From an uncultured delta proteobacterium (GTDB lineage Bacteria; Desulfobacterota; Zymogenia; Zymogenales; Zymogenaceae), in contig CAWBYW010000016.1 in NCBI GenBank assembly GCA_963792965.1, positions 128,001-192,000 on the forward strand: a DNA stretch of 64,000 bases. The letters are read 5' to 3'. Positions 12,420 to 38,680 of the stretch are shown piece after piece. The notes beneath the pieces are model-generated. The model saw only the letters and a list, made by a program, of their open reading frames with translations, ran no database searches and was not told the origin of the DNA. Within the stretch, counting starts at the first letter, position 1. The number at the start of each line of letters is the position of its first letter. Made by a program: the position numbers and the translations under genes.

Positions 12420-12467
12420 TGGGTTTCACCTTCGCTTCATTGATAAGAAGGGATGCCGTCGGCCCGC

Positions 12468-21100: not shown

Positions 21101-21724
21101 TCAGTTGGTCGCCGGGACCACGTTGAAGGCCACGGAGGTGTAGTATTCATTGTCAAAATAGATGTCCCAGCGCCACTGACCCGTGGGGTCACCCGAGGGA
21201 TTAAACCCCCAGTAGCTGGTAAAGATGTCGCTGTCCGGCGTCAGCGTGGTGCTATAGACGGCGCGGTTCTCCGCCGGGTAGGTTTTATAGCTTCCCTCGC
21301 TCCCCTCCCAGAGGGTCCAGTTCTGGGGCGCATAGGGGAAAAACTCCTCTTCACGGTAGGAAACCGGATGTCCGCTGTTGCTTTTGTATTTGAATGAGAT
21401 GCCGAAATAGGTGCTCGGGATGTACGGTATGGTAGTCGCGTCCTCATACACGTAGAGATTTCCCGAGCCGTCGTCCTTCATCTTGCCCATCCTGAATTCA
21501 GTGATGACACACGTCGTGAGGGCTTGCGGGGGCGACATCCCGGGCCCGACCACGCTCGGCACTCCGGGCTGGGACGGCGCGCCATACGGCTGCGGGCCCG
21601 CGGGCCCCGCCTGTCCGGGTCCCCCGGCTCCTATCCCGAGCATCTGTTTGATCCTGTCGCATCCCGTCCCCGCGAAGGCCAGCGCAAGCACAAGGAGGGA
21701 CAAAATAATCAGGTTCTTTCTCAT
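21101..21724 (-). CDS. Hypothetical lipoprotein with Pro/Gly-rich linker
   Basis: Lipobox AGTGC; GPGQAGPAGPQP linker; beta-rich C-terminal domain. Confidence 0.7.
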   Translation of the reverse strand: MRKNLIILSLLVLALAFAGTGCDRIKQMLGIGAGGPGQAGPAGPQPYGAPSQPGVPSVVGPGMSPPQALTTCVITEFRMGKMKDDGSGNLYVYEDATTIPYIPSTYFGISFKYKSNSGHPVSYREEEFFPYAPQNWTLWEGSEGSYKTYPAENRAVYSTTLTPDSDIFTSYWGFNPSGDPTGQWRWDIYFDNEYYTSVAFNVVPATN

Positions 21725-21856: not shown

Positions 21857-22504
21857 TCAGGGCAACCGTTCCCCCCGCGTGGACGCCCGGCCCTGCCCCC
21901 CGATAACCTTTACCGCCTCCTCATAGGCCAGCACATACCCCCACCGATTTTTCTCCCTGTCCGTCCGCTCCGAAAGGAGCGCGTCGATCTCGCCGGTGTT
22001 CCGGGTGACGGGCTTGGGTCCCGAAAGGCCCTTTTTCAACGCGTCGATCTCGCCGGCATAGTAGACCGCGAGTCCCTCCGAAAACCAGAGCGGCACGTGG
22101 GTGCCGAAACGAAGCCGGAGAAGCGCGAGACACACCTCATGGGCGACGGTCGACTTCAACACCCCGCGCTCTTTCAGGACGTTCACCGGCTGCAGGTAGA
22201 TCGATCCGTCGATCATCGCCGAGGCCGACCAGAACGGCAGCCTCGTCTGGGCCGTGAAATCTCCGGTCTCCTTGAAGATCACCACGTCGATGGGACGGCC
22301 CGCGCCGCTCCCAACCCTCGTTTCCATCGCGGTGTATGCCGATTCGAGGGCGTCCTTTACCTCCGAGAGCTCGCCGGCCCGAAGGGTCTCGGCGAAATAG
22401 ATATTGAAATGCCGTGTCTGGGTCTGGGCAAAGTCAAGGGCGCCTGCCTCTCGGCTGATGACGAGAAGAAGGCACGAGATCAGAAATAGGAACGGTCTTC
22501 TCAA
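21857..22504 (-). CDS. Secreted peptidase MA/gluzincin-like protein with degenerate Zn motif
   Basis: Signal peptide; VAHEVCL...PLWFSEGLAVY (family pattern HExxH...PxWxxEG). Confidence 0.65.
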   Translation of the reverse strand: MRRPFLFLISCLLLVISREAGALDFAQTQTRHFNIYFAETLRAGELSEVKDALESAYTAMETRVGSGAGRPIDVVIFKETGDFTAQTRLPFWSASAMIDGSIYLQPVNVLKERGVLKSTVAHEVCLALLRLRFGTHVPLWFSEGLAVYYAGEIDALKKGLSGPKPVTRNTGEIDALLSERTDREKNRWGYVLAYEEAVKVIGGQGRASTRGERLP

Positions 22505-23529
22505 TCCGTATGCACGCCTCCGAAATAGACGCGGAAAACCTCCCGGGCCACCGGCGCGGCATCCTCACCCCCCCGGCCGTGGTAGAGGAAGACGACCACG
22601 GCGATCTCGGGGTTCTCGGCGGGGGCAAAACCCAAGAACCAGGCGTGAGTCGCCCAGCTGGAGCCGAGGAACTCGCCGGTGCCGGTTTTGCCCATAATCT
22701 CGTGCCCGTCCGGCGTCCCCTTGACGGCGGTTCCGTACGCCGCCGCATCGCGCATTCCCTCGGCGAGGATCGGCGCCGCGCGGGAAACCTCTACCTTCCT
22801 GTTGAGTCTCGGCGAAAATGAACCGATATCGTCTGCGGTGGGGGTCACGCGGGGAACCCAGATACTGCCCCCGTTCACGAGGGCCGAAAGATTCACGATC
22901 ACCTGAAGGGGCGTCGCCGTGACGTTGTCGGTGTCTCCGATGACATACTCACGGGCAAACGCCGGCTCGGGGGGGATGAGCCTTCCCGCCTCCTCCTGTG
23001 GAAGGTTGACCCCGGTCTTTTCTCCAAACCCGAGCTCGGAAAGCCCCCGGTAGGTGGTGTCGGCGCCCAGCGTCTCGGCAAGGGAAAGGAAATAGAGATT
23101 ACACGAGTAGGCGATCCCGCGGACAAGGTTGAGATCACCGTGTCCGGGGGGGTACCAGCAATCGTATTTCGTTCCCGATATAACGGCACTCCCGGTACAC
23201 CTGAAGCGAGCGTCGGGAGAGATACGCTTCTCTTCGATCCCTTTCCAGACGCTCACAAGCTTGACGAGCGAGCCGGGGGGAAAGGCCCAGCGTGTCGCCA
23301 TGTCGGGCCCCACCATCGCTCTGATGCGTCCCGTCTTCACGTCCATGACGACGACCGCCCCGGTCCGGCCCGCCAGGGCGTCGGATGCCGCGCTTTCGAG
23401 GAGGGCGTCGCCTTTCAACACCTGTTCCGGGCCCGGCCTGCAACCCGAGGCGAAGAGAAATAAAAGGGCGACCCCCCCGATGAGGGGTCGCCGAAAGAGT
23501 AAACGAATCCGCCGCCGGATCCCCGTCAT
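22501..23529 (-). CDS. Penicillin-binding transpeptidase-domain lipoprotein
   Basis: SxxK (GSLVK), SxN (SCN), KTG (GKTGT); lipobox ASGC; no transglycosylase domain. Confidence 0.88.
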   Translation of the reverse strand: MTGIRRRIRLLFRRPLIGGVALLFLFASGCRPGPEQVLKGDALLESAASDALAGRTGAVVVMDVKTGRIRAMVGPDMATRWAFPPGSLVKLVSVWKGIEEKRISPDARFRCTGSAVISGTKYDCWYPPGHGDLNLVRGIAYSCNLYFLSLAETLGADTTYRGLSELGFGEKTGVNLPQEEAGRLIPPEPAFAREYVIGDTDNVTATPLQVIVNLSALVNGGSIWVPRVTPTADDIGSFSPRLNRKVEVSRAAPILAEGMRDAAAYGTAVKGTPDGHEIMGKTGTGEFLGSSWATHAWFLGFAPAENPEIAVVVFLYHGRGGEDAAPVAREVFRVYFGGVHTD

Positions 23530-26500
23530 TTCCCCTCGGTGATGACAAGGCTTGAGCTTCCCGTCCTTCCGAAGCGGTCCGGGAAGTACATCAGGTACGC
23601 CTCGGCCGGCATGACACCGTAGGTCCCCGGGTTTTGGGCGCGGAGGATATACTTGAAGACATAGGTCCCCACGTCGACGTAGTCCATCGATAGAGCGATC
23701 CGCTCATCCCGGAATTCCCTTCCGGCAAACCACCAGTCCGCATCGCCGGTATAGAGATCGTCCCCGGAGATGACATAGTTTTTATCGTCGCTGATGGCCT
23801 CATAGCCCGCCGGGTAGTAGTCCTCCAGCAGGAAGTATTGGGCCTTCTTGTCGGTCGTGACCGAAAGCTCCACGAGGATCTCGTCCCCGCTACTGACCGG
23901 GCCGCTGAGCGGCACCTTCGCGTAGATGAGCTCTCCCTTCTTGGGCACCTTCTTGAGGAGGTAGTACTTTCTGCTCACGGCAAATCCGGCGTTCAGCGGG
24001 GCTATCGAGGGGGCCGCGCTGTAGTGCGTGAAGGTCGAGGAATAGTAGAGGCTACCCGGCCCGTCCTTCTTGATGACGATCGTATTGGGGCCGGTCTTGA
24101 GATCCCCTTCCTTGACGGTAATCGTTCCCCCCTCGGTGAGCATCGTCTCCTTGGTGATGTGGCTCTTCTTGAGCTGTTTGCCGTTGAGGGTAAGCGTCAT
24201 GGTGTAGTTCGGCTTGATCTCCCCGGTCCGGGTGATGTAGTCCGTCAGGGCATAGATGATCTTCCCCGTGGCCTTGGTGGAGCGCCAGTAGCTTCCGGTC
24301 CGGTTGATGATAAGCCAGCGGATCGTCTTGGGGATGAGGGGATTATTGACGTCGCGCATGGCCATCACCCGCAAAACGTACGCGGTGGTCTCCAGGGGAT
24401 CGGCCTCCCAGTCCCACCAATAGAAGTCCTCTCCGACGTAACCCCAGTGAACATAGCCGTTCTCCTGGATCTTTTCCTTCATGAGCAGGTCATACAGGAC
24501 GTTGGCCTTCTCCCGGATCCCCTCGTTCTCGTAGGCCAACAGCAGCATCGCCTGAGAAATGGGGGTGAGCTTGTCGCGCTTCTCGAACATCTCGTCGAGC
24601 CACGCGGTCTTGAGCTTGTCCGTGTAGGACAAGACGTAGAGGGCGTAGACCTTGACGGAGTCCTGATCGATCTTGCTCAGCTGAGAGATGAGGGACGCGG
24701 TGCCGCGCTTGATGACGCCCTCGTCCACGGTGATGGGAATGCCTGCCTCGGGAAGGAGGCGTTTCGCTTCGAGGAGCCCGTACAACACGTAGGCGGTCAT
24801 GTAGGGATCGGTCTCGTCGAACTCGTACCACCCCCAGCCGTTATCGTCGTGCTGCCGTTTGTAGAGCACCATGAGCCCGCTCTTGATGTAGGCGGGGAGG
24901 TCCTTCTCTACGCTCTTATCGGAAAGGTCAAGCTTCTTTAATACCGACGCGACCATGACTGATGGCAAGAACCTTGCCATTACCTGCTCGTTTCACCCAT
25001 AGGGGTAGCCGACGAGGAATGGTATAGCGGCAAGCATTGTGTTGACGAGCGATGGACTGGTGGTAATGGTGAGCTCAGCAGCGTTCTTTATCGTGTTGGC
25101 GGGCTTGTTGACCGTCACCGTGAGCGTCCCGGAGTCCTTGATGATCTCTCCCATATCGTTCTTTGTCTCTTTGATGCCGAGCGGGAGGATCGGCACCTTT
25201 ATCTCCATTCCGTCGGAGACCTCGTTGGTCATCGCCTTTGCCGTGAGAACGGCACTTCCCACGAGGTCCGCCCTGACGTGCCAGTCGACGCGCTTCTCTC
25301 CGTTTTTCGGGACGATTGCATCGACCGGAACGCCGGAAGCGAGCGTCAATCCCTTTGCGTCGAACGTGAAGTGCACCTTCTTGTCGGTCGACAGGTAATT
25401 ATGGGCGATGGTGGAGATTACGAGGTCGTCCCCCTGGCGCAGAAATCGCGGCGCCTCTATGCGGACGAGTAAGTCCTTGCGCTCGATGACCCGGTAGGTA
25501 GTCTCCCCCATGCTGTCGCCCGTGGTCACCCCCCGGACCGTCGCACGCCAACGCGTCAGGTTGTCCGGGAAGGTGACGGTGACCGTGGCCATACCCTTTG
25601 CGTTGGTCGTGATCGTGGGCGACCAGTACATCGTGTCCTTGAAGTCCTTTCGGATCAGCGGTTGAACGAGCGTGTCTCCCTTGAAGTCGGCAAGCTTCGT
25701 CTCTTTTTCCGGAAGTCCCGCCAGGAGTCCTTTCCGGTGAGAGTATCCGTAAAAGCGGAAGTAGAGGGATGACGACGTGTCCACGGAATGATAGCGCAGC
25801 GAGTAGAAATACTTCTGGATTTCGTCGACAAGCTCCGGTGAGATGGCGTAGATGGCGTCGTCCACGACGCCGAGCGACACCTCTGCCGACACGGGTTTGC
25901 CTGTGCTGTCCGTCGTCTTTATCGTAAAGGTGCCCTTTTCTTGCGGCTCGTACGTCGCCTTATTGGAGGTCACCTCGACGTTGATGAACTTTTCGGTCGG
26001 TGGGATGATGATGTTCTTGCTGTCCGAATAGAGCTCATCGTTGAAGATCGCGGCAACCGAGAGGTAGATGTTGGGGGTGTATCTCTCCTTTATGGGGAGA
26101 TCCAGCATCGCCGTGCCACCCGTGGCTTTGATGACTCGGCTATCAAGGATCGAGTCTCCCTCGGTGGTAATCAACAGATAGGTATCCTTCACCGGCGCGG
26201 CGATCAGGATGTGGGCGGTATCGCCCACCGCGTAGGTATCCTTGTCGGGGATAATCGTGACGCCGCCCTCCGACGTCCCGCCGTAGGCATACCCCTCCGT
26301 AAAGGAATACGATGAGTCCTTGGCCGTGGTGGAGTTGCCCGCGTTATCGAAGACCGTGGCGATGAAATTGACGTCGCCCACGTTTTTCACCGTATATTCG
26401 ATGACGGCGTCCCCACCGGAGTTCGTCCTTCCCGAAAGGGTGGCCGAGCTCGTGACCTTGCCCCCCTGCCAGTCGGTCTCCGTGACGATGAGCGTCACCG

Positions 26501-28166
26501 GCACATTCGCCACACCCTTGTTGTCAAAGTCGGAGACGTTGACCGTGATCCGCGCCTTATCCCCCGGCGCGTAGACCCAGCGGTCGGGACGTAGCGAAAC
26601 GGTGTAGTTTGACCGAACGACCTTGACGACGCTGCTGGTGGTAACCACCCGGCGCGAGAGATCGGTAACGTTGGCCTCGATGGTGAAGGTATAGTCGTTG
26701 TCGGGCGACTCAAGGTATTGCGACGTGTCTACCGTGAGCCTGAGCTTCCCGGCGTTGTCGAGCATAGCCGTGCCACTGTCCACCATGACCTTCTCGGTGG
26801 CGGTCCAGTAGTCTTCGTCCATGAAGTACCAGCCCCAGTCGTACCCCCACCACCAGGGGCGCTCGTAGACCGACCGGTAGACCGTATAGTCCACCTTGGC
26901 CTCCGTTACGGGGCTGCCGAAGTAGTAGCCCGCCTCGATATCGGCCGTGATCGTGTCGCCCCGGATGTAGACGTTCTTATCCGTCCTGATCTTGACCTCG
27001 TATTCGGGCTTCTTGTACTCCTCCACCTTGAAGCTGTTGTAGTAGTTCTGTCCATTCAGTCCCACGACGATCTGATATTCGCCGAGCGAGGGCTCCTCTC
27101 CGAGGGTGAAGTCCCCCGAGAGGCTCCCGTACTTATTAATCTTATAGTTGTTCCGGAAGACCTCGTCGCCCTTGGCGTCGTCGATGATGACCAGGTAGTC
27201 GTCGCCGGTGTCGGGAACCTTCAGCCCCGAGTCGGTGGCGTTTCTCAGGATCGAGCGAAAATGCACCGTGTCGCCGGGACGGTAGACGGGTCGGTCGGTG
27301 TAGGTGTAGACCTTGTCGCTTGCTTCCCCTTCCCCGTAGGCATAGGGGTCGGCCAGGGTGAAGTTCTCGCCGTCCTGGGCGAAGACATAGATGACGTCAC
27401 TCTCGGTCGCTTTCACCTTGGAGTAGTAGATCCCGTCGGAGTCCGTCTTCCCCTTGAAGAGGAGTTTTTTCTGGTTGTCGTAGACCGATACCTTAACGCC
27501 TTTCATCGGTTTGCCGGTTACCCGGTCGGCCACGTAGATAAGGCTGTCGGTGCTCGAGTTCTTCACGACAAACGACATGGGGGTAACGACGACCATCGTA
27601 TAGGCCACCGAATCCTCAAAGACCGCCTCGACGAGGTAGCACCCCGGTTTCGGGACTTTGACGTCTATGTTGTGGTACTCCCACTGTCCACTGCCCGAGA
27701 TGACCAACTTCTCCTGCCAGCGGTTGAGGAGCTTGAACTGGGTCAGGATCGGGAAGAGCTCGTAGGTCTGTGGCGCGGGTGAGACGGGCTCCTGGGCGTG
27801 CGGCAGGCCGAGTGCCGAGACGACATCGTCTCGGATGTTGTCGGAGAGTTTTGAGCGATAGTCGTCCCGGAAGAGTTCTACCCCCTTCCGTTTGATCGCC
27901 CCAACCATCTCGGCGGGGGCCGATGTCCCCCGTTTCGTCGTCACCACCGGCGAGTGGACGTCATCGAGCCCGAGGAAGTACGATTTCGGATCGTCTACCC
28001 GGTAGAGCCGGATATCGAGGGACGGGACATCCATGGAGGAAACGGTGACGGTGACGGGCTCCCCCGGAGCGAAGATCTTGTCCGTGGAGAGCTCAAAGGA
28101 GCCTGCGAGCGTCACGGCCGGCAGTGTTAAGAGCAATACGATCGAAAGAATAAGGGACTTTTTCAT
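23526..28166 (-). CDS. Bacterial alpha-2-macroglobulin (about 1546 aa) with in-frame UGA at the thioester Cys position (putative Sec1058)
   Basis: YTDRPVYRPGD, FKVEEYKKPEY, IRKDFKDTMYW, PDNLTRW, YPYG-UGA-NEQVMARFLP, QHDDNGWGW, PAEAYLMY. The two ORF-track pieces are in the same frame, 12 nt apart. Confidence 0.9.
24962..24980 (-). promoter_or_regulatory. Putative bacterial SECIS hairpin
   Basis: ATGGCAAG-GTT-CTTGCCAT perfect 8-bp stem starting 12 nt after the UGA (24993-24995); G-first apical loop. Confidence 0.7.
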
Positions 28167-28203
28167 AGTTTCCCTCAAAGAATGGAGTATATCGTTGTTT
28201 GGT

Positions 28204-28409: not shown

Positions 28410-29543
28410 TTAGTTCAGTATCTTGAACCGATAATAACCCAAAAAATGGTCGTTCTCTCTTACCGGCCGCCAGCGCTCGTCCGGATGCACTTTGAGCGTG
28501 GCGAGCCTGACCTTCCTCACGTCCCCGTTATCGTGGGAGCGCGGGCCGGTGTGATAGACGAGCCAATCTTCGTTTACGTCCGAATCGCTCTCCTTTCCCC
28601 ACTCGCCGAGGTAGATCATCATATGGGAGGGCATCCGGGGGTTTTCCGGGTTGAAGAAAAAGAGGAGATCACCGGGAAGAATACCCTTCTCGGTTCGCCC
28701 GAGGAACACGACGTTGTACTGAAGCAGCGCCTCGGCCGATGCCGCCGCAGAAAAGTTGACGCCGATATCGGAAGGGACAAACGGCCCCGGCGCCGTCCGA
28801 AAGACATCGACTCCCAGCAGCGGCACGTGGGGATAGGTGTACTTCTTCACGTCGGGATTTGCGGGGCTGACCAGCGTCGCGTAGGAGGAAAAGAAAGCGT
28901 CGTCGTGGCGCTTGAGCGCCTCGACATAGGCAAAACGCACAAGCCCCGCACAGTCCCGGTTGATCTGGTCCCAGTGGCGGTTCTTCTCGTAGACTTGAGA
29001 TTCCGCGATGGCGCAGAGCCACCGCCGGAAGTTGAGGCGGTCTGTGTCGCCGAAGAGCTCCACCACATCGGGAAACCCGTCCCCGTCCCGGTCACGCATG
29101 TCGGGGATAACATTCACCTGTGCCCGGGCAGGCGCCACCCCCGGAGACTCGGCCCGGATCGTGAGGTCACCCGTCTCGAAGGTCGAGATGAGCGTGAGGG
29201 AGGCCGTTCCGCGGACAAACGCGAGCGGTCCTGTTTCCACCCTTGTCGTCGCCGGGCCGACAAGCGTCACCGTAAGGGGTGCGCCGCAGCCGCGCGCAAC
29301 ATTCCCCCTGTCGGTCTTTGCAAGGATCGTGATCTCCACGGTATCTTCCTTGTTGGCCCAGAGCGTCTGCTTTGACACGGCGATCTCGATGCTTTTGGCC
29401 TTTGCGCACGACGTGATCAAACAGGCCAACAGGAGCGTCGAAAGGATCGCCGCTCCGCCTTTAATCCAGGTCCTTGACCCTGATCTTAAACCCGCCTTGA
29501 ATTGCATCACCGCTGAAGTTGACCCCCCCGTAGCATGAGACAA
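28410..29543 (-). CDS. DUF1175 (YfaT-like) lipoprotein with N-terminal Ig-like domain; start uncertain
   Basis: RDCAGLVRFAY, PGDLLFF, SHMMIYLG, VYHTG, RWRP motifs; lipobox ITSC; adjacent to alpha-2-macroglobulin. Confidence 0.8.
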   Translation of the reverse strand: MSHATGGSTSAVMQFKAGLRSGSRTWIKGGAAILSTLLLACLITSCAKAKSIEIAVSKQTLWANKEDTVEITILAKTDRGNVARGCGAPLTVTLVGPATTRVETGPLAFVRGTASLTLISTFETGDLTIRAESPGVAPARAQVNVIPDMRDRDGDGFPDVVELFGDTDRLNFRRWLCAIAESQVYEKNRHWDQINRDCAGLVRFAYVEALKRHDDAFFSSYATLVSPANPDVKKYTYPHVPLLGVDVFRTAPGPFVPSDIGVNFSAAASAEALLQYNVVFLGRTEKGILPGDLLFFFNPENPRMPSHMMIYLGEWGKESDSDVNEDWLVYHTGPRSHDNGDVRKVRLATLKVHPDERWRPVRENDHFLGYYRFKILN

Positions 29544-31204
29544 AAGATCTTCTGGTCAGTTCCACGAGCGGCACGAGCCGCTTTTCCGAATCCTGGTAGA
29601 GAAAGTATTTATAGTTTGCCGAGATGTTGACGAGATAACCCTCGATCAACGACATGGCGTTGTTCCCGTCTACGTAGAGATAGAGGTCGTAGGCGTCTTT
29701 CGGCATGTCTTTTTGCGCCGAGATGAACGCGGGCGACTTCACGAGAAAATCGCGGTCAAAAAGGCCGCCCGCCCCCGTCATCGAGGAAATAACAGAGAGG
29801 TCGTTGAGCTGCTCCATCGTCGAAAGGTCCCAGAAGAGGAAGAGCCTGTCATCCTTGAGCGCAAAACCAGGATTAGGCTTGACGGAGGCGACGTACGACG
29901 TCCCGTTCCAATCGAGGCTCTTTTCCCTGAACTGGCCCATATAGGAGATGTGAGCGGCGTCAAGCTCGAGGGGAGACGGGCCCGCATCTGAAGAATGAAT
30001 AGCTGTAGAGCTTGCCGATATTGGTGGAAAGGGCCTCTTCTTTGCCCGGTGCCACCCCAACGGAGGCGATCGTCCTGAGGTACGGTTTTTCTCCCTCATA
30101 CCCGATCCCGACGAGGGCCGCCAGCGCCCCCCTGCCGAGGTTGTTGATGATTCCACCCTCCAGGTCGAATCCGCCCTTGTCCTTCCATTTTTTCAGGATC
30201 GAGATGTAGTTTACCTTTTGGGCGATGTCGGTAAACCAGACCTTCCCGAAATGGGTATAAAGGATGCCGGGGTCGAAGGCCCGAAACGCCACGAGCGCCG
30301 CCGTCTCGCCGGGCATCGCCGATAGGTCTATTGTCGCCTTATCGGAGAGCGACCCCAGCCCCGCCAGGAGGCTTTTCCCCTCGCCCCCGGTGTAGGGGGC
30401 AAAGAGCGTGATATCCGCGCCGGCCTCGGAAAAGGTGACCGAGAAAAGGAGCGCGTCCGTCCCCTTGAGAAGCCGTCTGGCATGGGCGACGATGCCCATC
30501 TCGGAGTCATCGGGGCTCATCGCCTTCGTTGAATAGAAAAGGATATGGTAGTCCTTTGGCAGGTGGGAGAGCCGATCCATGACGGCGGGGTTTCCGGAGA
30601 GGTTCTTTGGGTTTTGCCCCGTAACGATGTCCCACTCGGATTTGAAGAGATCGGGGGAGTCGGAGACGATCGTATAGCCTTTGACGTTCTTGTAATAGAT
30701 CTTCTTGTCTGTGCTCGCGACAACCCAGACGGAATAGGAGCCCCAGTTTTCCTTCGTCACGTGGCTCGAAAAGATCGAAAAGAGGTTGATGAGAAAACCC
30801 TTAAACCAGCCCGTCTCAAGCAGCGCCGCCGAGGCCTCCTTTCCCTCGAGGGTCGTCCGATAGAAGACGGCCCGCGCACCTATGACCCACAGGAAGCGTT
30901 TCAGGGTCGGGCGAATCCCGGTCATCTTCTCGATAGTCCCGAGCCTGGAGAGCATCGGGGCCGAGAGGTCGCTCTTGATCGGGCCCTCAAAGAGCGAAAG
31001 ATCGCCGACTTCATCAAAATAATCGCTTGAGAGCAACGGCCTCAATCCTGCCCTGAGGTCCCTGAGGTAGACGAAGGAGTCTACGTTCTCCGGGATGATC
31101 TGATAGAGCTCGTAGGCGTCTCCGGCCACGGCACTAAGGGCCCCAAGCGAAAGGGCCGCGATAACGACCGCGCCGATCAGACATGCCCTGATCTTAGATC
31201 TCAT
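29461..31204 (-). CDS. Exported hypothetical protein (position of YfaA/MagB-like), frameshift near 29990
   Basis: Signal peptide MRSKIRACLIGAVVIAALSLGALSAVA; pieces 29960..31246 and 29461..30156; family assignment from context only. Confidence 0.55.
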
Positions 31205-31223
31205 GAATCCCTCCTTTTCTCCG

Positions 31224-31830
31224 CTATCGGCCGATGGGGCCCGCAAATGACTCGGGATCGGCCCCCGCCCGGAGGATCGTATTGTAGTACCTCAGCGTGA
31301 CGATGTGAATCACCCGCTCGCGCATAGTATCGGGGGTCGCCTTCATGAGAGCGGGGAGGTCCTTGTAGAAATCCTTCAGCGACTCGTTCACGTCGCTCTT
31401 CATCTCGGGCGTCGGCGCGCCGGCACGACCGAGGCCCGGAGGTTCTTGTATTCGTCCCACTCGGCGTCAAGGATGACGTCCAGCGCGTCTCCCACGGCAC
31501 CTGTGTCCGTCCCGCCGGGCTGGCTGTAGTCCGTACCCGACGGCGTCTCGGAGACCGTGGGAGGCACAAGCATCCTGGTCCCGGGCGGCGGCGATCATCT
31601 CCCACTCGTGGCGAGGGACGTCCGGATCTCGCTTTTGCGGCTTGGGATAGCCCGCCTTGATCTGATCGATCGCAAGGGTAACGTCGGCAAAGACCCCCCC
31701 GACCTTCGGACCCTTCTCTCCGGGCGCGGGCGCCTTTTTTTCGCAGGCCCACGAGAAGATCAAGAGAAACGAGAGGAGCCCAAGAATCGGCCAGAGCAGT
31801 CCCGGTCGGGCGCTCAGTCCGTCCCGCCGT
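31224..31830 (-). CDS. Hypothetical lipoprotein, frameshifted; start uncertain
   Basis: LLWPILGLLSFLLIFSWAC lipobox-like; pieces 31467..31763 and 31224..31460. Confidence 0.45.
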
Positions 31831-31835
31831 TTCCG

Positions 31836-32703
31836 TCAGGATCGGCCGAGCGCCGAGAGGATCTCGGCCAGCGCCCGATCCGAGCGATACGTATTGGTCT
31901 TGATGTTCCATCCCTTCTCCTTCAAACCGATTAAGAGCTGGGTAACCTCGGGCAGAAACGGCCTCACGCCGTCGAGCGCCGCCCGGTCGGAAAAGAGTTC
32001 TTCCGGGGTGCTGTCTAGTTTGATCTTCCCCTTCTCGATAACGACGATCCGGTCGGCCACCCGGATGATTTCTTCCATGTCATGGGAGATGATGATGACG
32101 GTCTTGTTCTTGGCGTTGAGGGCCTTGATGTGCCGGATGGTCTCGGTCCTCGACTGGGGATCAAGTCCCTGGGTGGGCTCGTCGAATATGAGTATGGGAG
32201 GATCCATAGCGAGGATCGAGGCGATGGCGACCTTGCGCTGCTCACCGCCGGAAAGGGTGAACGGCGAGCGCGTCCTGAGCCGGTCGATGTCAAGGTTGAC
32301 GAGGCCTGCCGCATCACGACACTCGCCTTTCGACCTCCTCTTTCGAAAAACCCCCTCGGTTGACGAGGGAAAACGCGATCTCTTTCTCGACCGTCTCCTC
32401 AAAGAGCTGGTGCTCGGGATACTGAAAGACGAGCCCTACCATTTCCCGCAGCCTGCCGGTCTTCTTGGTGGCGGGCGTCAGGTCAAAATCACCGACGCGG
32501 ACGCTCCCCTTCGCGGGCGTCAGCAGTCCGTTGAGGTGCAGCGCCAGCGTCGTCTTCCCCGAGCCGGTGCGCCCGATCAGCGCGACGAACTGGCCCTCCT
32601 CGATCGAGAGGTTCACCCCCGAGAGCGCCTCCTTTTCCAGCGGCGTATTGGGGAAAAAGACATGCGAGAGGTCTTTTATCTCGATGAGCGGTGCGGTCGT
32701 CAT
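31836..32703 (-). CDS. ecfA: ECF transporter ATPase (EcfA2/CbiO-like), frameshift near 32320
   Basis: GRTGSGKTT, VFQYPEHQLFEETV, SPFTLSGGEQRKVAIA, FDEPTQGLDP. Confidence 0.85.
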
Positions 32704-32954
32704 GAGACTTTGTAGACCATGTCGCCCGGCCGAACCCTGTCTTTGATCTTGATCCCCACGAGTGCGCCTGACGCGACCTCGGTTACCGGGGCGTTGTCGA
32801 TCTGCATCGACTCCACCACTTCCGTGAAATCGGTCGTCGCACCCTTGAAGCGGAGCTCGTCCCCAACCTTGAGGGAGCCCTCGACCTTTATGGCGGCAAC
32901 CGACGGCTTGGCAAAGAACTTGATGACCTCTCCGATTTTTACCTCACTTGACAT
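32700..32954 (-). CDS. Small translation elongation factor-like (EF-Tu domain II-like beta-barrel) protein
   Basis: IGEVIKFF...GSLKVGD...VESMQID...G..VGIK...VRPGD pattern. Confidence 0.75.
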   Translation of the reverse strand: MSSEVKIGEVIKFFAKPSVAAIKVEGSLKVGDELRFKGATTDFTEVVESMQIDNAPVTEVASGALVGIKIKDRVRPGDMVYKVS

Positions 32955-32976
32955 CACACTCCTCCTCCCGTGGTAG

Positions 32977-34424
32977 TCAGCATGATCTATCCTTATTCAT
33001 TCCCTTCTCATGGCCGACAGGATTCCGTTTGCGAGGTCCGTGACCTCCCTCTCCAGGACGGTTCGAGGATCGATGACGAGGCTCTCGTCCGAGATTCGTG
33101 CGATAATGGTCGGATGCTTGCGTCCTCAAGCGTCTCTCGAGCGCCTCGGGGCTCTCGGCCAGCGGAGCAATCGTTACCACCCTTGTCGGGATCTGTGCGG
33201 TGGGAAATGCCCCGCCGCCCACTCCCGAGAAGTCATCGGCGGTCGTGACGTGGAACTTCGGATGGGGCGTGGCCGCCAGCAGCTTCACGATCCTTTTGGC
33301 CCTTTTCTTCGTCTCGTCATAGGACATCGTAATCATCGCCAGGACCGGGATCTTTTTTCGCGCATCAAACGGGTCCCGATAAATCATCAGGGTCGATTCG
33401 ACGGCGGCAAGCGACAGCTTATCGATCCTCACGGCCCGCGCCAGTGGGTTCTTTTTAATGCGGTCCGATCGGGTCCGCCTCCCCTACGATGAACCCCGCC
33501 TGGGCACCGCCCAACAGCTTATCGCCCGAAAAACGTAATGACATCGACGCCCGATTTAATCACTTCCGAGACGGTCGGCTCATGGGGGAGGCCCCAGGGC
33601 CCGAGATCCATGAGCGAGCCGCTGCCGAGGTCCTCCATGACCGGGATGTCATATTTTTTCCCGAGCCCGACGAGCTCGGCGGTCGACACTTCCTCGGTGA
33701 ACCCGACGATCCGGTAATTGGAGGTGTGGACCTTGAGGAGGAGCGCGTCTGGCCGACCCGATGGCGCTCTCGTAGTCCGAAAGCCCTCGTCCGGTTCGTC
33801 GTGCCGACCTCTCTGAGGCGCGCGCCGCTCTTTTCCATGACATCCGGGATACTAAAAGCGCCGCCGATCTCCACCAGCTCTCCCCGTGAGACGATGACGT
33901 CCCTGCCGTCGGCAAGAGTATTGAGCGCAAGCAACACGGCCGCGGCGTTGTTGTTGACCGCAAGGCCCGCCTCCGCGGAGGTGATATGGGCGATCAGGTC
34001 GGAAACGTGGTCGTGGCGGGATCCCCGCTCTCCGCGCTCGACGTTGAATTCGAGATTGGAATAGCCCGAGGCGATGCGTACGATATGCTCGAGGGCCTCC
34101 GCGGCGAGGGGCGCGCGGCCGAGGTTTGTATGCAAGATAATCCCCGTGGCGTTGATGACGGGCGCAAGCTGACGGCGTGACCGATTTGATCAGCCACTGC
34201 TCGATGAGCGACAAGAGCTCCGGCTCCGAGACTTCGGCGGGATGCTCTTTGGACATGAGCTCTTTTCGCGCGGACAAAATGGCGCCTCTCACCGCCTCCT
34301 TTACCACCATCCTCGGAAAGCGCCTCGATAGTTCCGTGACCATGGGGTGAGCCAGCAGCTTATCCACCGCGGGGAGTTTGGCGAGAGGGGATTTTTGTGC
34401 CGGGTTTTCCGACTTTCTTGGCAT
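32977..34424 (-). CDS. selA: L-seryl-tRNA(Sec) selenium transferase, split by frameshifts
   Basis: LPAVDKLL; HTNLGRAPL; [16 protein letters not shown]; [10 protein letters not shown]; [10 protein letters not shown]; EVGTTNRT; FSGDKLLGG; RIDKLSLAA. Confidence 0.92.
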
Positions 34425-34447
34425 GGCGCCGCTCGAGATTTTTTCCA

Positions 34448-34476
34448 TCTATACCATACTTTGACGGATTTCTCAA
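34448..34476 (-). promoter_or_regulatory. sigma70-like promoter directly upstream of selA
   Basis: Minus strand TTGAGA-N17-TATAGA with TG extension. Confidence 0.5.
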
Positions 34477-34711
34477 GGAAAATAAGGCTCTATGGGCGAC
34501 GAACCTGACCCTCCCGCGCGGTTCTCAGTTCGGAAATGGAGATTTTGACCCTCAGGCGAGCGAAGGGCTCGGGGGGCCGAGCCCCGCCAAGACAAACGAT
34601 TCCGCCGCTCATTATCTGACGGTAAAGGTAACTGAAGTCAGCTCCGCTCCACCCGAATCGGAGCCGTTCATGCGCAGGTCGTAGCTTCCGGGGGTCGTCG
34701 GGCCACAAGGC

Positions 34712-35716
34712 TTATAAATCCTCAATTTCTTTAACCAGACTTCGGTCCAGCCGCGCCCCGTGGCTTGCCACCACCTGGGCGGAGATGTAGGCCGCGATCC
34801 TGCCGGCCCTCTCCATGTCTATTCCGTGCGTGACCCCGTAGAGGATTCCCGCCGCGTAGGCGTCCCCCGCCCCGTTGGTGTTGACGACCCGGACGGGGTA
34901 AATCGGCACCCTGATGACACGGTCGTCGGCCTTGATGAGGCTTCCCCGCTGCCCGAGCTTGACGACGGCCAGATCGCACAGCTCGTATATCAGAGACAGC
35001 GCCTGTTCCTCGTCATCCTTTCCGGTGAACGCCCTGGCTTCAAGCTCATTGACGAAAATGATATCGGCGTATTCCTTGACAAGGTCGCGGATCGGCTCAA
35101 GGTTCCTTCCGATGAGGGCGGGGTCGGCAAGATCGATGGAGACCCGTCCCCCCGACTCATGCGCGATTTTCATCGCGTGGACGCAGGTCTCCCTCAACAG
35201 GGGGTCCTCCAGCTGGTACCCCTCAATATGAAGGGTCTTGCTCTCCCTGATGTCCTCATCAAGGATATCTTCCTTCCTGAAATGGATTGCCGCGCCCAGA
35301 TGCGTGGCAAACGTCCGCTCGGAATCCGGGGTAATGAAGGTGATAGCGTGGCCGGTGCCTGCGGACTTGTGCCTGGAGAGCTTGGATGCGACCCCGTCTA
35401 CGATCGTCCTCTGCTCATAGACCGTCCCGTGGTAGTCGTCGCCGATCTTGCCGAGGAAGACGGCGCTCCCCCCGAGGGCGCTGACGCCGGCCAGGGTGTT
35501 GGCCGATGAGCCCCCCGGGGCGGTCTTTACCGTGTAGCTCTCCAGCATCTTGAGGATCTTGGTGCTCTGGGCTTCGTCTATCAGGTGCATCTCGCCCTTC
35601 TTCATATCGATCTCGGCCAGCACTCCCTCGTCCACCTCGACGATGAAATCCAACAGCGGGCTCCCGATTCCGCAGACATCGTATCGCTTCACCGAATGTT
35701 CCTCAGGCTTCATCAT
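34712..35716 (-). CDS. PfkB family (adenosine kinase-like) carbohydrate kinase
   Basis: PGGSSANT, ERTFATHLGAA, FVNELEA, NTNGAGDAYAAG. Confidence 0.9.
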   Translation of the reverse strand: MMKPEEHSVKRYDVCGIGSPLLDFIVEVDEGVLAEIDMKKGEMHLIDEAQSTKILKMLESYTVKTAPGGSSANTLAGVSALGGSAVFLGKIGDDYHGTVYEQRTIVDGVASKLSRHKSAGTGHAITFITPDSERTFATHLGAAIHFRKEDILDEDIRESKTLHIEGYQLEDPLLRETCVHAMKIAHESGGRVSIDLADPALIGRNLEPIRDLVKEYADIIFVNELEARAFTGKDDEEQALSLIYELCDLAVVKLGQRGSLIKADDRVIRVPIYPVRVVNTNGAGDAYAAGILYGVTHGIDMERAGRIAAYISAQVVASHGARLDRSLVKEIEDL

Positions 35717-35756
35717 CGCCCCACCGATACTCTATTACTGTGCATTCCGTCACACT

Positions 35757-37333
35757 CTACCGTCCGAGCAGGAGGCGACCGATAATCGACCGGATCGTCT
35801 CGTCATCACGCCCGGTCGAGTCGACGCCGAGGGAATCGGGCCTCTCCGATGCGTCGAGTGGCTCGCGGAGCAGCTTTTGCTTCAGGTAGACCTCAAAGGT
35901 CGCGTCCGACGCGTTTTTCTCCTTCATCCGCTTGGCAATCCTTCTCTTGACCACGTCGTCCGGGCACGTGACGGCAACTATAAGGAAACGCGCCCCGGTC
36001 TTTTCGGCGACGCTCTTTGCCTCCTGCCTCTCTTTGTGCTTGAGGAAGCATGCGTCCAGGATCACGGATCGGTTGGCCCCGAGCGCTTTTTCGGCGCGCG
36101 CATACAGGGTAGCGTAGGTTTTCCTGGTCATCGTGGTCGAGTAGATCCCGGATCCGAAACGGTCGTAGTGGTGAGCCAGAGGGCTTTGCCCCGCCAGCTC
36201 CTTTCTCACCTCGTCGGAGCGATAGACAATGCTGTCCATTTCGTCGGCAAGATCGTCGGCGATTCGGCTCTTGCCCGTCCCGGCAAGGCCGAACATGATG
36301 ATCAAGAACGGGCGCGTCTCCCTCACCGCATAGTGATGGGCAAGGTGAAAATAGCCCCGGGCCCGCCCGGCCGCCTCTTCTTTTTCTTCTGAGTCGATCT
36401 CCGCCTCTCCCAGCTCGAAGCTCAGCACCTTTCCCCGGGTAAAGGCGTGGTAGCAGGCGTAAAAGTCTATCAGCTCGCCGAGCCGTGTGTCCCCCGAGAG
36501 CCGCACATATTCTTCGACGAAGAAGCGCGGCAAGTCCCGGATACCTGAAGGAGTCCAGATCCATCTTGAGAAAGGCGATATCCTGGGCCACGTCCCCCAT
36601 CCGGAATCGCTCGTTGAACTCGATGCAGTCATAGATATAGATATCCTTTGTGGTGATGCAGATGTTTCTCGAGTGGAGGTCTCCGTGCCCCTCCCTGATA
36701 AACCCGCCCGCGACCCTCTCCTCCAAGAGGTCGGCCTTCTCCCTGAAGAAGCGCTCGGTATAGTCCTTGATCGTCTCAAAGTCGAGGGGCGGTATCGTCT
36801 TTGAGATATACTTTTTCGTCTGGTTGAAGTTCTCGTCGCAGTTGAGCCCGATCACAGGGATCGTCCCGTATCGGTTGACGTGCTGGCCCGTGCGCGCGGC
36901 GCGGTAAAACGGGACGAGGACCCCGACTATCCGCGCGATGTCGCCTCTCCCGACCTTCCCCGCGGCAAGCCCCACGTCCATCATCCCCCGCGCCGGGAGC
37001 CGCCTCATCACGACGGCGAAGTCTATGACGGTGCCCGCGCCCTCTGACCGCGATGCGTGTCCCGTCATCCGTAATCGGCACCACGCCGAGATAGACATCG
37101 GGGCAGAGCCGCGCGTTGAGCGCGACTTCCTGCTCGCAGTAGAACTTACGCTTTTCCAGCGTGGTGAAATCGAGGAATCCGAAGTCCACCGGCTTCTTGA
37201 TCTTGTAGACGAGGTCGCCGGCGATAAATACGACCGAGATATGGGTCTGGATGACCTCGGCCCGCTTGGGCCAGTGGGGAAAGCTCCCGGGCTTGCTGAG
37301 CGACTCGATGAGCGCCGTCAGGGGCATGGACAA
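35757..37333 (-). CDS. Aminoglycoside-phosphotransferase-like / AAA_33 P-loop kinase fusion, frameshifted
   Basis: [40 protein letters not shown]; C-terminal [15 protein letters not shown]. Confidence 0.85.
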
Positions 37334-37417
37334 CTCCGATAGGGGAAAATAGCAAGGGGGAAAGACGGCTTCCCCCCACGTAACTCAGTCACAGGAATGA
37401 TTCGCGCGCGCCTCTCA

Positions 37418-38596
37418 TTACGAGAAGAGGTCGTCGAAAAATCTTTTCTTCGTCTTGATTTTCAACAGACTGAAAATGTCCCGCTGAATGTCCCGGATGC
37501 TCTTTCCGGCCTCAACCATGACGTCCTGTTTGCGCCACTCGTCGAGCCGAAACGGGTGGTCCGACAGGCCCGACAGGTCAAAGCCCTCATCGTGGGCCTT
37601 CTGTACGAATCCCTGCGGCAGCTCGTTGGGAAGCGTCACGTCGTTCATGATCGCCCACACCATCGTCCAGAGCCGCGCCGTGTTGAAATGGTTGTAGCCG
37701 CCGCCCCCGAGCGCGATCCATCGCTTTGCGTTCTGGCGCATCTTCGTTACGGCGTGGACGTAGCCCTGGGTGGTGAGGTTGAGGTTTGCCAGGGGGTCGG
37801 TCAGCATCATGTCGCAGCCCACCTGGCTGACCAGGACGTCCGGGGAGAACTTCTCGATGACCGGGACAAAAATATCGTCAAAGGCCCACATAAAGGTCCG
37901 GTCGTCGGTCCCGTAGCGGAGCGGAACGTTGAGGGAATACCCTTTCCCCTTGCCGGCGCCGATCTCCTCGGTAAAGCCCGTCCCGGGGAAGAGGGACTTG
38001 CCGCTCTCGTGAAACGAGAGGGTAAGGACCCTGTCGGTATCGTAGAAGGCGGCCTGCACGCCGTCGCCGTGGTGCGCGTCGATGTCGACGTACATCACCT
38101 TGAGCCGCTTCTTGACCAGGTACTGGATCGCGATGACGATATCGTTGACGAAACAGAATCCCGCGGCCCGATCCTTCATGGCGTGGTGCATACCGCCGGC
38201 CATGTTGAAGGCGGCCCAGGCCTTGCCTTCGGCCACCGTCCGCGCCGCCGTCATCGTGTTCCCGAGGACCATCAGGGAAAAATCGAGGATGCCGGGGAAG
38301 ACCGGGTTATCTCCCGGGCCGATGTTATATTTCGCGTGCTCGGGCAGGTAGGTGCCGTCGTTTGCGCTCTTCAACGCCTCCATATAGCCCGCGTCATGGT
38401 AGGAGAGGGCCTCCTCGATCGGCGCCGCCGACGAAGAGAGATAGAGGGAATTTTCGAGCTTATCCAGCCCATATGCGCGGATCAGCTCCATCGCGTAGGT
38501 AACCCGCTCCCATTTGAGCGGATGTCCCGGCCCGTAGTTGAACTTCTCAAACCCCTCGGGGATGATCAGGGCGGTCTTTTTTGAGCGCTTGAAAAT
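37418..38596 (-). CDS. acuC: Histone-deacetylase family / AcuC-like acetoin utilization protein
   Basis: GPGHPLKWER, GGMHHA, GFCFVND, DIDAHHGDGVQ, SFHESG, LFPGTG, LGGGGY. The frame extends upstream of the first ATG. Confidence 0.88.
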   Translation of the reverse strand: MFKRSKKTALIIPEGFEKFNYGPGHPLKWERVTYAMELIRAYGLDKLENSLYLSSSAAPIEEALSYHDAGYMEALKSANDGTYLPEHAKYNIGPGDNPVFPGILDFSLMVLGNTMTAARTVAEGKAWAAFNMAGGMHHAMKDRAAGFCFVNDIVIAIQYLVKKRLKVMYVDIDAHHGDGVQAAFYDTDRVLTLSFHESGKSLFPGTGFTEEIGAGKGKGYSLNVPLRYGTDDRTFMWAFDDIFVPVIEKFSPDVLVSQVGCDMMLTDPLANLNLTTQGYVHAVTKMRQNAKRWIALGGGGYNHFNTARLWTMVWAIMNDVTLPNELPQGFVQKAHDEGFDLSGLSDHPFRLDEWRKQDVMVEAGKSIRDIQRDIFSLLKIKTKKRFFDDLFS

Positions 38597-38680
38597 AGCT
38601 AACCTCCTGAAATCCTGCCTCCCAATCAGCTGTATTGAGACCCACCGATATCGACGCGGCGACCTTAGCTTCGCTCAGTC

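What the first reader, a model, noticed from the sequence alone, without database searches (positions are those of the whole stretch)
23526..28166. Putative seleno-alpha-2-macroglobulin: UGA at the thioester cysteine (UxEQ)
Seen: the minus strand reads GGC TAC CCC TAT GGG TGA AAC GAG CAG GTA ATG GCA AGG TTC TTG CCA = G-Y-P-Y-G-*-N-E-Q-V-M-A-R-F-L-P. The two ORF-track pieces are in frame, so this is not one of the window's frameshifts, and the rest of the 4.6-kb gene is intact. Known: thioester proteins (A2M, C3/C4, E. coli YfhM) use PxGCxEQ, where Cys and Gln form a reactive thioester that covalently traps proteases. Prokaryotic selenoproteins are recognised by a UGA aligned with a conserved catalytic Cys. 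Inference: residue ~1058 is selenocysteine, and the protein would carry an internal Sec-Gln selenoester, a more reactive acyl donor. Characterised bacterial selenoproteins are mostly redox enzymes, and I know of no described Sec-containing A2M.
Basis: partly seen in the sequence, partly recalled or inferred. Interest (0 to 1): 0.95.

Follow-up and report, generated by a model that had tools for sequence, protein, structure and literature searches.

The report
Selenocysteine at alpha-2-macroglobulin's thioester site
A bacterial protease-trapping protein (alpha-2-macroglobulin) carries a selenocysteine codon where all characterised relatives have the cysteine that forms their reactive thioester, so these bacteria may build a selenium-based version of that chemical trap.

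Summary
On the minus strand, TGA at 24993-24995 sits in GYPYG-TGA-NEQ, inside an otherwise intact 4.6-kb alpha-2-macroglobulin (A2M) gene.

It is not an error or a pseudogene:
- The same TGA is present in 8 of 10 species of the window's family. The other 2 have TGT or TGC.
- The 484 codons downstream are under the same purifying selection as those upstream.
- The 33 nt after the TGA are identical in every TGA form. They contain an 8-bp hairpin with a GUU loop, 12 nt after the TGA. This is the longest synonymous-invariant stretch in the gene.
- The two Cys forms lack the hairpin.

The genome has tRNA-Sec, selB and a Sec-containing selD. Its selA lies in the window but is frameshifted, most likely by assembly indels.

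A pattern scan of about 186,000 species genomes found 22 more TGA-for-Cys A2Ms. Their record titles name Poribacteria, Myxococcota, Planctomycetota, Verrucomicrobiota and Armatimonadota. Of 26 distinct TGA contexts (22 from that scan), 23 have a lineage-specific hairpin in the same place, against 0 of 18 Cys contexts.

Selenocysteine insertion is strongly supported. A Sec-Gln selenoester is inferred, not shown. Seven full-text searches found no published description.

The parts
23526..28166 (-). Alpha-2-macroglobulin gene. It runs from ATG 28166 to the terminal TGA at 23526-23528: 1546 codons including one in-frame TGA.
   Evidence: Pfam matches are bMG3, MG2, bMG5, A2M_BRD, A2M, TED_complement and bMG10. 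PDB sequence hits are CD109, human A2M and E. coli YfhM.
28104..28166 (-). Predicted N-terminal signal peptide, about 21 residues ending ..TLA|GS. There is no lipobox cysteine.
   Evidence: Read by eye from the translation. No signal-peptide tool was run, so this is an inference.
25845..26258 (-). Bait-region domain (A2M_BRD)
   Evidence: residues 641-778 of P0001, E = 7.1e-23.
24696..25031 (-). N-terminal part of the thioester domain (the TED_complement match), which contains the U-N-E-Q motif.
   Evidence: residues 1050-1161, E = 3.4e-13. One search aligns it to the CD109 thioester motif.
24993..24995 (-). In-frame TGA, read as selenocysteine, at the position of the thioester cysteine.
   Evidence: The same codon is TGA in 8 of 10 family species and TGT/TGC in 2. 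All other homologues listed are Cys.
24962..24980 (-). Candidate SECIS hairpin: an 8-bp stem with a GUU loop, starting 12 nt after the TGA.
   Evidence: It is identical in all TGA orthologues and in 8 metagenome contigs. It is absent from the two Cys orthologues.
24961..24998 (-). Block with no synonymous variation, from the GGG codon before the TGA to the codon after the hairpin.
   Evidence: It contains the only 36-nt windows identical in all four intact TGA genes, and the longest synonymous-invariant run (10 informative codons; the next longest is 5). One search gives a background of 569 of 756 degenerate codons varying.
23577..23987 (-). Bacterial MG10 domain, downstream of the TGA.
   Evidence: E = 7.1e-29. 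It is found in 20 of 20 aligned TGA/Cys homologues.
22501..23529 (-). Downstream gene whose start overlaps the A2M stop. It is a penicillin-binding-protein transpeptidase domain only, with no glycosyltransferase domain found.
   Evidence: PF00905, E = 3e-46.
28410..29543 (-). Upstream gene, a DUF1175 protein.
   Evidence: PF06672, E = 5.4e-61.
33118..34382 (-). selA (selenocysteine synthase), broken by about six single-base insertions.
   Evidence: It lies in a 29.4-40 kb stretch where 5 unrelated genes are also frameshifted.

Best explanation
The gene encodes a secreted or periplasmic bacterial alpha-2-macroglobulin. Its UGA is recoded as selenocysteine by SelB and Sec-tRNA(Sec), directed by a SECIS hairpin that lies inside the coding sequence 12 nt downstream. 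Selenocysteine occupies exactly the position of the cysteine that, in A2M, C3 and YfhM, attacks the glutamine three residues later to form the buried thioester.

Supported by comparative evidence: the TGA is real, conserved and followed by translated sequence. The hairpin is under selection only where TGA is present. The Sec machinery is in the genome. Independent A2M lineages in other phyla show the same arrangement.

Inferred: after folding, the selenol attacks the Gln side-chain amide to give an internal Sec-Gln selenoester. When a protease cleaves the bait region, this bond is exposed and acylates a nucleophile on the protease, trapping it covalently. Because a selenoester is a more reactive acyl donor than a thioester, capture should be faster or less dependent on the nucleophile.
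For: (1) TGA at the Cys codon is present in 8 of 10 species (4 of 5 genera) of the window's family, which is also its whole class. The other 2 have TGT or TGC.
(2) Three of the TGA genomes are many-contig assemblies in which the gene is intact apart from this one TGA (G001, G004, G006).
(3) Conservation downstream of the TGA equals or exceeds that upstream. In TGA-TGA pairs, amino-acid identity is 0.67-0.90 downstream against 0.58-0.85 upstream, and dN/dS is 0.10-0.19 against 0.13-0.21.
(4) The 33 nt after the TGA are identical in all TGA forms, although 569 of 756 degenerate codons vary elsewhere in the gene. This is the longest invariant run in the gene.
(5) The Cys orthologues differ at 6 of those 10 codons and have no hairpin.
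(6) In the tree, each Cys form is nested among TGA forms, with support 100/100 and 96/95. This is the usual Sec-to-Cys replacement pattern.
(7) The genome has tRNA-Sec at 72.9 bits with anticodon TCA, selB at 363.8 bits and selD with its own in-frame TGA.
(8) The same gene ends in TGA in four TGA-form species, so TGA is still a stop codon.
(9) A pattern scan of genome contigs gave 109 stretches, of which 80 were shown. Of those, 25 are A2M homologues with TGA at the Cys and no other stop within 300 codons either side in 23. Their titles name five further phyla.
(10) A hairpin of at least 6 bp with a GU-containing loop, starting 10-14 nt after the TGA, is present in 23 of 26 distinct TGA contexts and 0 of 18 Cys contexts. 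The background rate is 395 of 14,197 (2.8%) other codon positions in the same genes. Stem sequences differ between lineages.
(11) tRNA-Sec and selB score above cut-off in 5 of 5 other-phylum genomes tested.
(12) Pro, Tyr, Gly, the Sec/Cys position, Glu and Gln of the motif are invariant in a 20-sequence alignment. For the 12 rows that came from the pattern scans this is imposed by the search patterns.
(13) On the chemistry, a review states that Sec peptides undergo acyl transfer from amide nitrogen to selenium to give selenoesters, and that selenoester ligations are fast (PMC10096412, passages read).
Against: There is no protein-level evidence.

The hairpin is invariant within the window's clade, so that clade offers no compensatory changes. 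Its folding energy is not exceptional. Rfam gave no match at E up to 10.

The window's own selA is frameshifted in about six places. If that is real rather than an assembly artefact, this particular organism could not make Sec.

tRNA-Sec was not found in 2 of 10 family genomes (G001 and G008, both TGA forms, 94% and 88% complete). selB was not found in 1 of 10 (G002, 89% complete).

Three of 26 TGA contexts lack a hairpin by my criterion (L102, L109, L127).

Both Cys-form genomes carry parts of the Sec machinery: G003 has all three parts searched, and G002 has tRNA-Sec and selA. Sec is therefore dispensable for the protein.

Nothing tested here shows that a selenoester forms or would survive in the periplasm. 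Its greater lability could argue against it.
Confidence: 0.85

Rival explanations
1. Selenocysteine is inserted but does not form a selenoester. The free selenol would serve another role, for example a redox-sensitive switch, a selenenylsulfide link to a target, or metal binding, with the A2M cage trapping proteases non-covalently as Type II A2Ms do.
For: Characterised selenoproteins are mostly redox enzymes (recalled knowledge). MagD traps a protease without any thioester (PMC5764988, passages read). A DUF1175 gene lies directly upstream; I recall DUF1175 as typical of Type II operons.
Against: Glu and Gln of the motif are kept in all 8 TGA orthologues that were found by homology rather than by pattern. 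The Cys forms nested within the clade keep the full CxEQ motif. This suggests the same chemistry is served by either residue.
Confidence: 0.2
2. The UGA works mainly as a stop, or as a selenium-dependent switch. The main product would be a 1057-residue protein lacking TED and MG10, with full-length protein made only when selenium is available.
For: SelB-dependent recoding competes with termination (general knowledge). Public gene calls end at the TGA: P0002, P0003 and P0115 end in P-[YF]-G.
Against: Strong purifying selection acts on the 484 downstream codons in frame. bMG10 is retained in 20 of 20 aligned homologues. The downstream piece has no independent start signal that is conserved. This rival is compatible with the main explanation as a regulatory layer and does not replace it.
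Confidence: 0.07
3. UGA is read as Cys or Trp, either by near-cognate suppression or by an altered genetic code, and not as Sec.
For: The position tolerates Cys (G002 and G003).
Against: The same genes end in TGA. A hairpin specific to the TGA forms sits at SECIS distance. tRNA-Sec and selB are present.
Confidence: 0.03
4. It is a sequencing error or a decaying pseudogene.
For: The window does contain frameshift-rich stretches.
Against: The A2M gene lies in a clean stretch. The TGA is seen in short contigs, in 7 other species, in 8 metagenome contigs and in five other phyla. There is no other stop in the gene.
Confidence: 0.02

Closest known systems
Type I (thioester) bacterial alpha-2-macroglobulins: E. 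coli YfhM/ECAM and Salmonella SaA2M
   Same: The multi-MG architecture with bait region, TED and MG10 is the same. There are sequence hits to YfhM (5a42, 4ziq, 4rtd; E about 1e-19) and SaA2M (4u48). The motif P-Y-G-x-x-E-Q is in the same place. A penicillin-binding-protein gene lies directly downstream, echoing the a2m-pbpC pairing described in PMC5764988.
   Different: Sec replaces the thioester Cys. The signal peptide has no lipobox Cys (read). The neighbouring PBP has only the transpeptidase domain. A DUF1175 gene lies upstream. Identity to the solved proteins is low.
Bacterial selenoprotein genes with Sec/Cys homologue pairs (FdhF, SelD, GrdA/B and others), decoded by SelB and a SECIS hairpin just 3' of the UGA
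   Same: The in-frame UGA aligns with Cys in homologues. A hairpin with G/U in the loop follows shortly after the UGA inside the ORF. Sec-to-Cys replacements occur within the clade. The gene co-occurs with tRNA-Sec, selA, selB and selD.
   Different: The host protein is not an oxidoreductase. The residue replaced is an acyl-carrying Cys of an intramolecular thioester. No Rfam family matched.
Eukaryotic thioester proteins (A2M, C3/C4, CD109, insect TEPs)
   Same: CD109 and human A2M are the best PDB sequence matches (E = 7e-27 to 3e-24). The GCGEQ/PYGCxEQ motif aligns to the TGA position.
   Different: These are bacterial proteins with bacterial MG3, MG5 and MG10 domains. No eukaryotic form with Sec turned up in my searches.
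Type II bacterial A2Ms (P. aeruginosa MagD, E. coli YfaS)
   Same: They are large periplasmic A2M-like proteins in multi-gene clusters. I recall DUF1175 as part of those clusters, and a DUF1175 gene is next door here.
   Different: Type II proteins lack the CxEQ motif (PMC5764988). This protein keeps x-E-Q with Sec in front.

Membership tests
Bacterial selenoprotein gene (SelB/SECIS-dependent UGA recoding) | An in-frame UGA aligned with a conserved Cys in homologues | tested here: met
   (TGA against TGT/TGC at the same codon). (119 of the 150 best representative clusters have CxEQ)..
Bacterial selenoprotein gene (SelB/SECIS-dependent UGA recoding) | The UGA is conserved across species and the downstream sequence stays in frame under purifying selection | tested here: met
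   (8 of 10 species). (downstream dN/dS 0.10-0.19 in TGA-TGA pairs).
Bacterial selenoprotein gene (SelB/SECIS-dependent UGA recoding) | A SECIS hairpin shortly 3' of the UGA with G/U in the apical loop, under selection. The distance and loop rule is recalled from the bSECIS literature. | tested here: met
   23 of 26 TGA contexts, 0 of 18 Cys contexts and a 2.8% background. Within the window's clade there is no covariation because the hairpin is invariant. Stems differ between phyla.
Bacterial selenoprotein gene (SelB/SECIS-dependent UGA recoding) | The genome encodes tRNA-Sec, SelA, SelB and SelD | tested here: inconclusive
   tRNA-Sec, selB and selD are present and above cut-off. selA is present but frameshifted in about six places, in a stretch where neighbouring genes are also frameshifted. 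selA is intact in the 7 many-contig or otherwise clean relatives.
Bacterial selenoprotein gene (SelB/SECIS-dependent UGA recoding) | Selenium shown in the protein | not testable with these tools
   This needs 75Se labelling or mass spectrometry.
Type I thioester-containing bacterial A2M | MG domains, bait-region domain, TED and MG10 | tested here: met
   (bMG10 in 20 of 20 and TED in 17 of 20 aligned homologues).
Type I thioester-containing bacterial A2M | Cys of the CxEQ motif | tested here: not met
   The codon is TGA. Glu and Gln are kept. For this reason I file it as a Sec variant and not as an ordinary member.
Type I thioester-containing bacterial A2M | Gene adjacent to pbpC (PBP1c) | tested here: inconclusive
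   The downstream gene has a transpeptidase domain only, with no glycosyltransferase domain found.
Type I thioester-containing bacterial A2M | An internal (thio)ester forms and proteases are trapped covalently | not testable with these tools
   A biochemical assay is needed.
Type II bacterial A2M (MagD/YfaS) | Absence of the CxEQ motif | tested here: not met
   U-N-E-Q is present. The Cys orthologues have C-N-E-Q.

The most novel reading that the evidence does not exclude
Bacteria from at least six phyla make alpha-2-macroglobulins whose warhead is an internal selenocysteine-glutamine selenoester. This would be the first natural protein selenoester, and a selenoprotein that uses Sec as an acyl carrier and leaving group in a covalent protease trap, not in redox catalysis. 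The Sec and Cys forms, which interconvert within single genera, would be a natural experiment in tuning warhead reactivity.
Probability: 0.55. Interest if true: 0.92.

Novelty: new variant of a known kind. Interest (0 to 1): 0.86.

Why it matters
Thioester proteins (A2M, complement C3/C4, TEPs, bacterial A2Ms) are a textbook case of a protein-encoded reactive bond. Selenocysteine is a textbook case of a residue used for redox catalysis. Finding Sec at the thioester cysteine, conserved with its own SECIS in several phyla, joins the two.

It predicts a new post-translational bond, a selenoester, and gives a directly testable system: natural Sec/Cys orthologue pairs of about 80% identity. It also extends the functional range of selenoproteins.

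It has a practical side. Public gene calls split these genes at the TGA, so the family is currently invisible in protein databases.

Tried and rejected
**Negative or unhelpful results**
- Rfam scan of 24800-25100 at E up to 10 gave no match.
- MFE z-scores of the region are unremarkable.
- MFE of positions +9 to +50 in TGA against Cys contexts: median -11.65 against -8.6 kcal/mol, Mann-Whitney p = 0.003. The rows are not independent, so I rely on the hairpin criterion and its background instead.
- NCBIfam has no model for this protein. The only hit was an irrelevant one at 18 bits.
- As an internal control I looked at the hairpin downstream of selD's TGA. Two 5-bp candidates, at +10 and +27, were not clean enough to use.

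**Sequencing runs**
- No RNA holder was listed.
- Only small shares of the stretch were held. The selA stretch was not covered by contigs of this organism, so the selA frameshifts could not be checked against reads.

**The pseudogene reading of selA**
- I considered it. The indels are all single-base insertions in otherwise well-conserved frames.
- Five neighbouring genes between 29.4 and 40 kb, and one at 8.1-12.4 kb, are also frameshifted, while the stretches in between are clean.
- I therefore judge them assembly errors, but this is not proven.

**Loss of the Sec trait as the reason for the Cys forms**
- Rejected. G003 has tRNA-Sec, selA and selB. G002 has tRNA-Sec and selA.

**Literature**
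- Seven full-text searches found nothing on a Sec-containing A2M or thioester protein. I saw only listings and abstract starts for these.
- My memory that the classic prokaryotic selenoproteome surveys do not list A2M is recall, not a check.
Full report
**Observation.** On the minus strand the window reads GGC TAC CCC TAT GGG TGA AAC GAG CAG, with TGA at 24995-24993. The two mechanical ORFs, 24993..28178 and 23526..24980, share one frame. Reading TGA as U gives a single 1551-codon translation, and its only other TGA is the terminal stop. Pfam finds a complete bacterial alpha-2-macroglobulin: bMG3, MG2, bMG5, bait-region domain, A2M, TED and bMG10. Against PDB sequences the best hits are CD109, human A2M, insect TEP1 and E. 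coli YfhM. The printed alignment puts PYG-[U]-NEQ on the PYGCGEQ thioester motif of CD109.

**Is the TGA real?** Two 151-base contigs of a public freshwater-sediment run cover the codon with no differences. Depth is about 2 and the run may be the source sample, so this is weak support. The stronger evidence is comparative. The window's family, which is also its whole class among the species held, has 10 species. The codon is TGA in 8 of them (G000, G001, G004-G009; 4 of 5 genera). It is TGT in G002 and TGC in G003. In three many-contig assemblies (G001, G004, G006) the 1550-codon match has this TGA as its only stop. Eight metagenome contigs carry it too. Seven of them have no other stop within 300 codons either side; one has six stops.

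**Is the downstream part translated?** In pairs of TGA-bearing genes, amino-acid identity after the TGA is 0.67-0.90, against 0.58-0.85 before it. dN/dS is 0.10-0.19 after it, against 0.13-0.21 before it. The bMG10 domain lies wholly downstream of the TGA and is found in 20 of 20 aligned homologues. The same gene ends in TGA in G000, G001, G004 and G006, so TGA has not been reassigned genome-wide.

**The hairpin.** Twelve nucleotides after the TGA lies an 8-bp stem with a GUU loop, at 24980-24962. Its energy of -9.8 kcal/mol is not unusual: z = -1.54, with 16 of 200 shuffles folding as well. Over 80 nt, z = 0.22. Rfam matched nothing.

The comparison with other sequences is what matters:
- The 33 nt after the TGA are letter-for-letter identical in every TGA orthologue and in all 8 metagenome contigs.
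- In the four intact TGA genes, 569 of 756 degenerate conserved-residue codons show synonymous variation.
- The run from codon -1 to +10 is the longest synonymous-invariant run in the gene (10 informative codons; the next longest is 5).
- That run contains the only 36-nt windows identical in all four genes.
- The two Cys orthologues differ at 6 of these 10 codons, including an Ala-to-Ser change, and have no hairpin.

This is the signature of an RNA element that is needed only when the codon is UGA.

**Direction of change.** A tree of 22 TED-region sequences puts Cys-form G003 as sister to a TGA-form metagenome sequence, with 100/100 support. Cys-form G002 sits inside a group of TGA forms, with 96/95 support. 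All TGA forms share one hairpin, so two separate Sec-to-Cys replacements is the simplest reading. The long outgroup branches make the deeper nodes unreliable, as the tool warned.

**Sec machinery.** The genome has:
- tRNA-Sec at 72.9 bits (cut-off 47) with anticodon TCA;
- selB at 363.8 bits (cut-off 242);
- selD at 355 bits, containing its own in-frame TGA.

selA is in this same window (33118-34382, minus strand), but it is broken into several frames. Alignment to two relatives shows about six single-base insertions, while identity stays around 70% in the correct frames. I compared 80 kb of the syntenic G002 contig with the window. Frame breaks are confined to 8.1-12.4 kb and 29.4-40 kb, where six unrelated genes are hit. 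The stretches at 12.9-29.4 kb, which includes the A2M gene, and 40-63 kb have none. I read these as patches of unpolished assembly, but reads did not cover the stretch, so a real selA pseudogene in this one organism is not excluded.

Across the family:
- selA is found in 10 of 10 genomes, above cut-off in 9;
- selB is found in 9 of 10, missing in G002 (89% complete);
- tRNA-Sec is found in 8 of 10, missing in G001 and G008.

The Cys-form genomes keep parts of the machinery: G003 has all three of these, and G002 has tRNA-Sec and selA.

**Beyond the clade.** In an even sample of 401 genomes of the phylum, 52 had a match to the TED region. Only the window's family showed a stop inside the match.

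I then scanned genome contigs for [YF]-P-Y-G-TGA-x-E-Q written as DNA. This gave 109 stretches, of which 80 were shown. Of these 80, 25 lie in frame in A2M homologues (blastp against the window's protein, E from 8e-11 to 0). In 23 of the 25 the TGA is the only stop within 300 codons either side; the exceptions are L097 with 2 stops and L148 with 8. The other 55 are chance matches, roughly as expected for such a pattern.

By record title, the 25 are:
- 10 Candidatus Poribacteria;
- 4 Myxococcota;
- 3 Planctomycetota;
- 2 Verrucomicrobiota;
- 2 Armatimonadota/Abditibacteriales;
- 1 unnamed;
- 3 Thermodesulfobacteriota or delta proteobacterium. These three share the window clade's context.

Five genomes from the other phyla were tested, and all five have tRNA-Sec and selB above cut-off.

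I defined a hairpin criterion: at least 6 uninterrupted pairs, a 3-6 nt loop containing GU, and a stem starting 8-20 nt after the codon. Results:
- It is met by 23 of 26 distinct TGA contexts.
- It is met by 0 of 18 distinct Cys contexts. Four of the 18 have a hairpin without GU.
- All 18 Cys contexts come from the window's own phylum, and I defined the criterion after seeing the folds.
- At other codon positions of the same genes it is met at 395 of 14,197 (2.8%).

The stems differ in sequence between lineages and sit in slightly different registers. Loops are GUU, GUC, GUCU or GGUC. Between two myxobacterial sequences, two stem positions change on both sides and keep pairing (read).

Three contexts fail the criterion: L102, L109 and L127. 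L102 has a 7-bp GUU hairpin further downstream, at +25 (read).

In the library of 1.84 billion representatives the N-terminal piece has 22,817 relatives. Among the best 150, 119 show CxEQ and 3 end exactly at P-[YF]-G. TGA forms are therefore a minority, and public gene calls truncate them.

**Mechanism.** The recoding step is supported by everything above. The chemistry is inferred. In Type I bacterial A2Ms the buried CxEQ thioester is exposed after bait cleavage and cross-links the protease (PMC5764988, passages read). Here Glu and Gln are kept in all 8 TGA orthologues that were found by homology, and Cys forms arise within the clade. Both facts point to the same role for either residue. A review notes that Sec peptides undergo amide-to-selenium acyl shift to give selenoesters, and that selenoester ligations are fast (PMC10096412, passages read). 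That makes a Sec-Gln selenoester chemically plausible and predicts a more reactive warhead. Whether such a bond is stable enough in a folded periplasmic protein is unknown.

**Context.** The N-terminus looks like a signal peptide without a lipobox Cys (read; no tool was run). Directly downstream, overlapping the stop, is a gene with a PBP transpeptidase domain only. Directly upstream is a DUF1175 gene. The first recalls the Type I a2m-pbpC pairing. The second recalls, from my memory, the Type II mag/yfa clusters.

**Novelty.** Seven full-text searches found no paper linking selenocysteine with A2M or thioester proteins. NCBIfam has no model for it. Supplements of selenoproteome surveys could not be opened and about 1.7 million PMC articles are not searched, so 'not found in print' is limited to that library. 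I rate it a new variant of a known kind: a known protein family and a known recoding mechanism, combined at a residue where it implies new chemistry.

Noticed in passing
window 8140-12425 and 29460-39930: Frameshifts cluster in two stretches. They break a gene of about 1570 codons into 7 pieces, and break five genes between 29.4 and 40 kb, including selA. Elsewhere the window matches G002 genes in single frames. In selA the indels are all single-base insertions. This looks like unpolished patches of the assembly.
   Followed up: partly
window 33118-34382 relative to 23526-28166: selA lies 5-6 kb from the A2M gene on the same contig in 7 of 10 family genomes: G000, G001, G002, G003, G005, G007 and G009 (coordinates). 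This includes the two Cys-form genomes. It may be plain synteny.
   Followed up: no
window 28410-29543 (-) and 22501-23613 (-): The A2M gene is flanked by a DUF1175 gene upstream and a transpeptidase-only PBP downstream. No glycosyltransferase domain was found nearby. This is a mix of what I recall as Type II and Type I gene contexts.
   Followed up: partly
G000:C7:544063-544998 (L022): selD of this genome has its own in-frame TGA in the N-terminal ..AAG-U-AAK.. loop. So at least one more selenoprotein gene is present.
   Followed up: partly
G008:C543 and G008:C232: One family genome has two overlapping partial A2M matches of different identity. One of them ends at a contig edge exactly before the Sec codon. 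This could be two copies, a strain mixture or an assembly break at the hairpin.
   Followed up: no
window 21857-22504 (-) and 21101-21724 (-): Two small genes follow the PBP-like gene on the same strand and are conserved in G002. They have no Pfam family apart from a weak Peptidase_MA_2 hint at E = 0.008.
   Followed up: no
L100, L114, L116, L125, L129, L134, L138, L145, L147, L161: Ten Poribacteria genomes carry a TGA-for-Cys A2M only about 21-24% identical to the window's. Nine share nearly the same GUCU-loop hairpin, with G-U wobble variants in the stem. L138 has a shorter stem and a different loop.
   Followed up: partly
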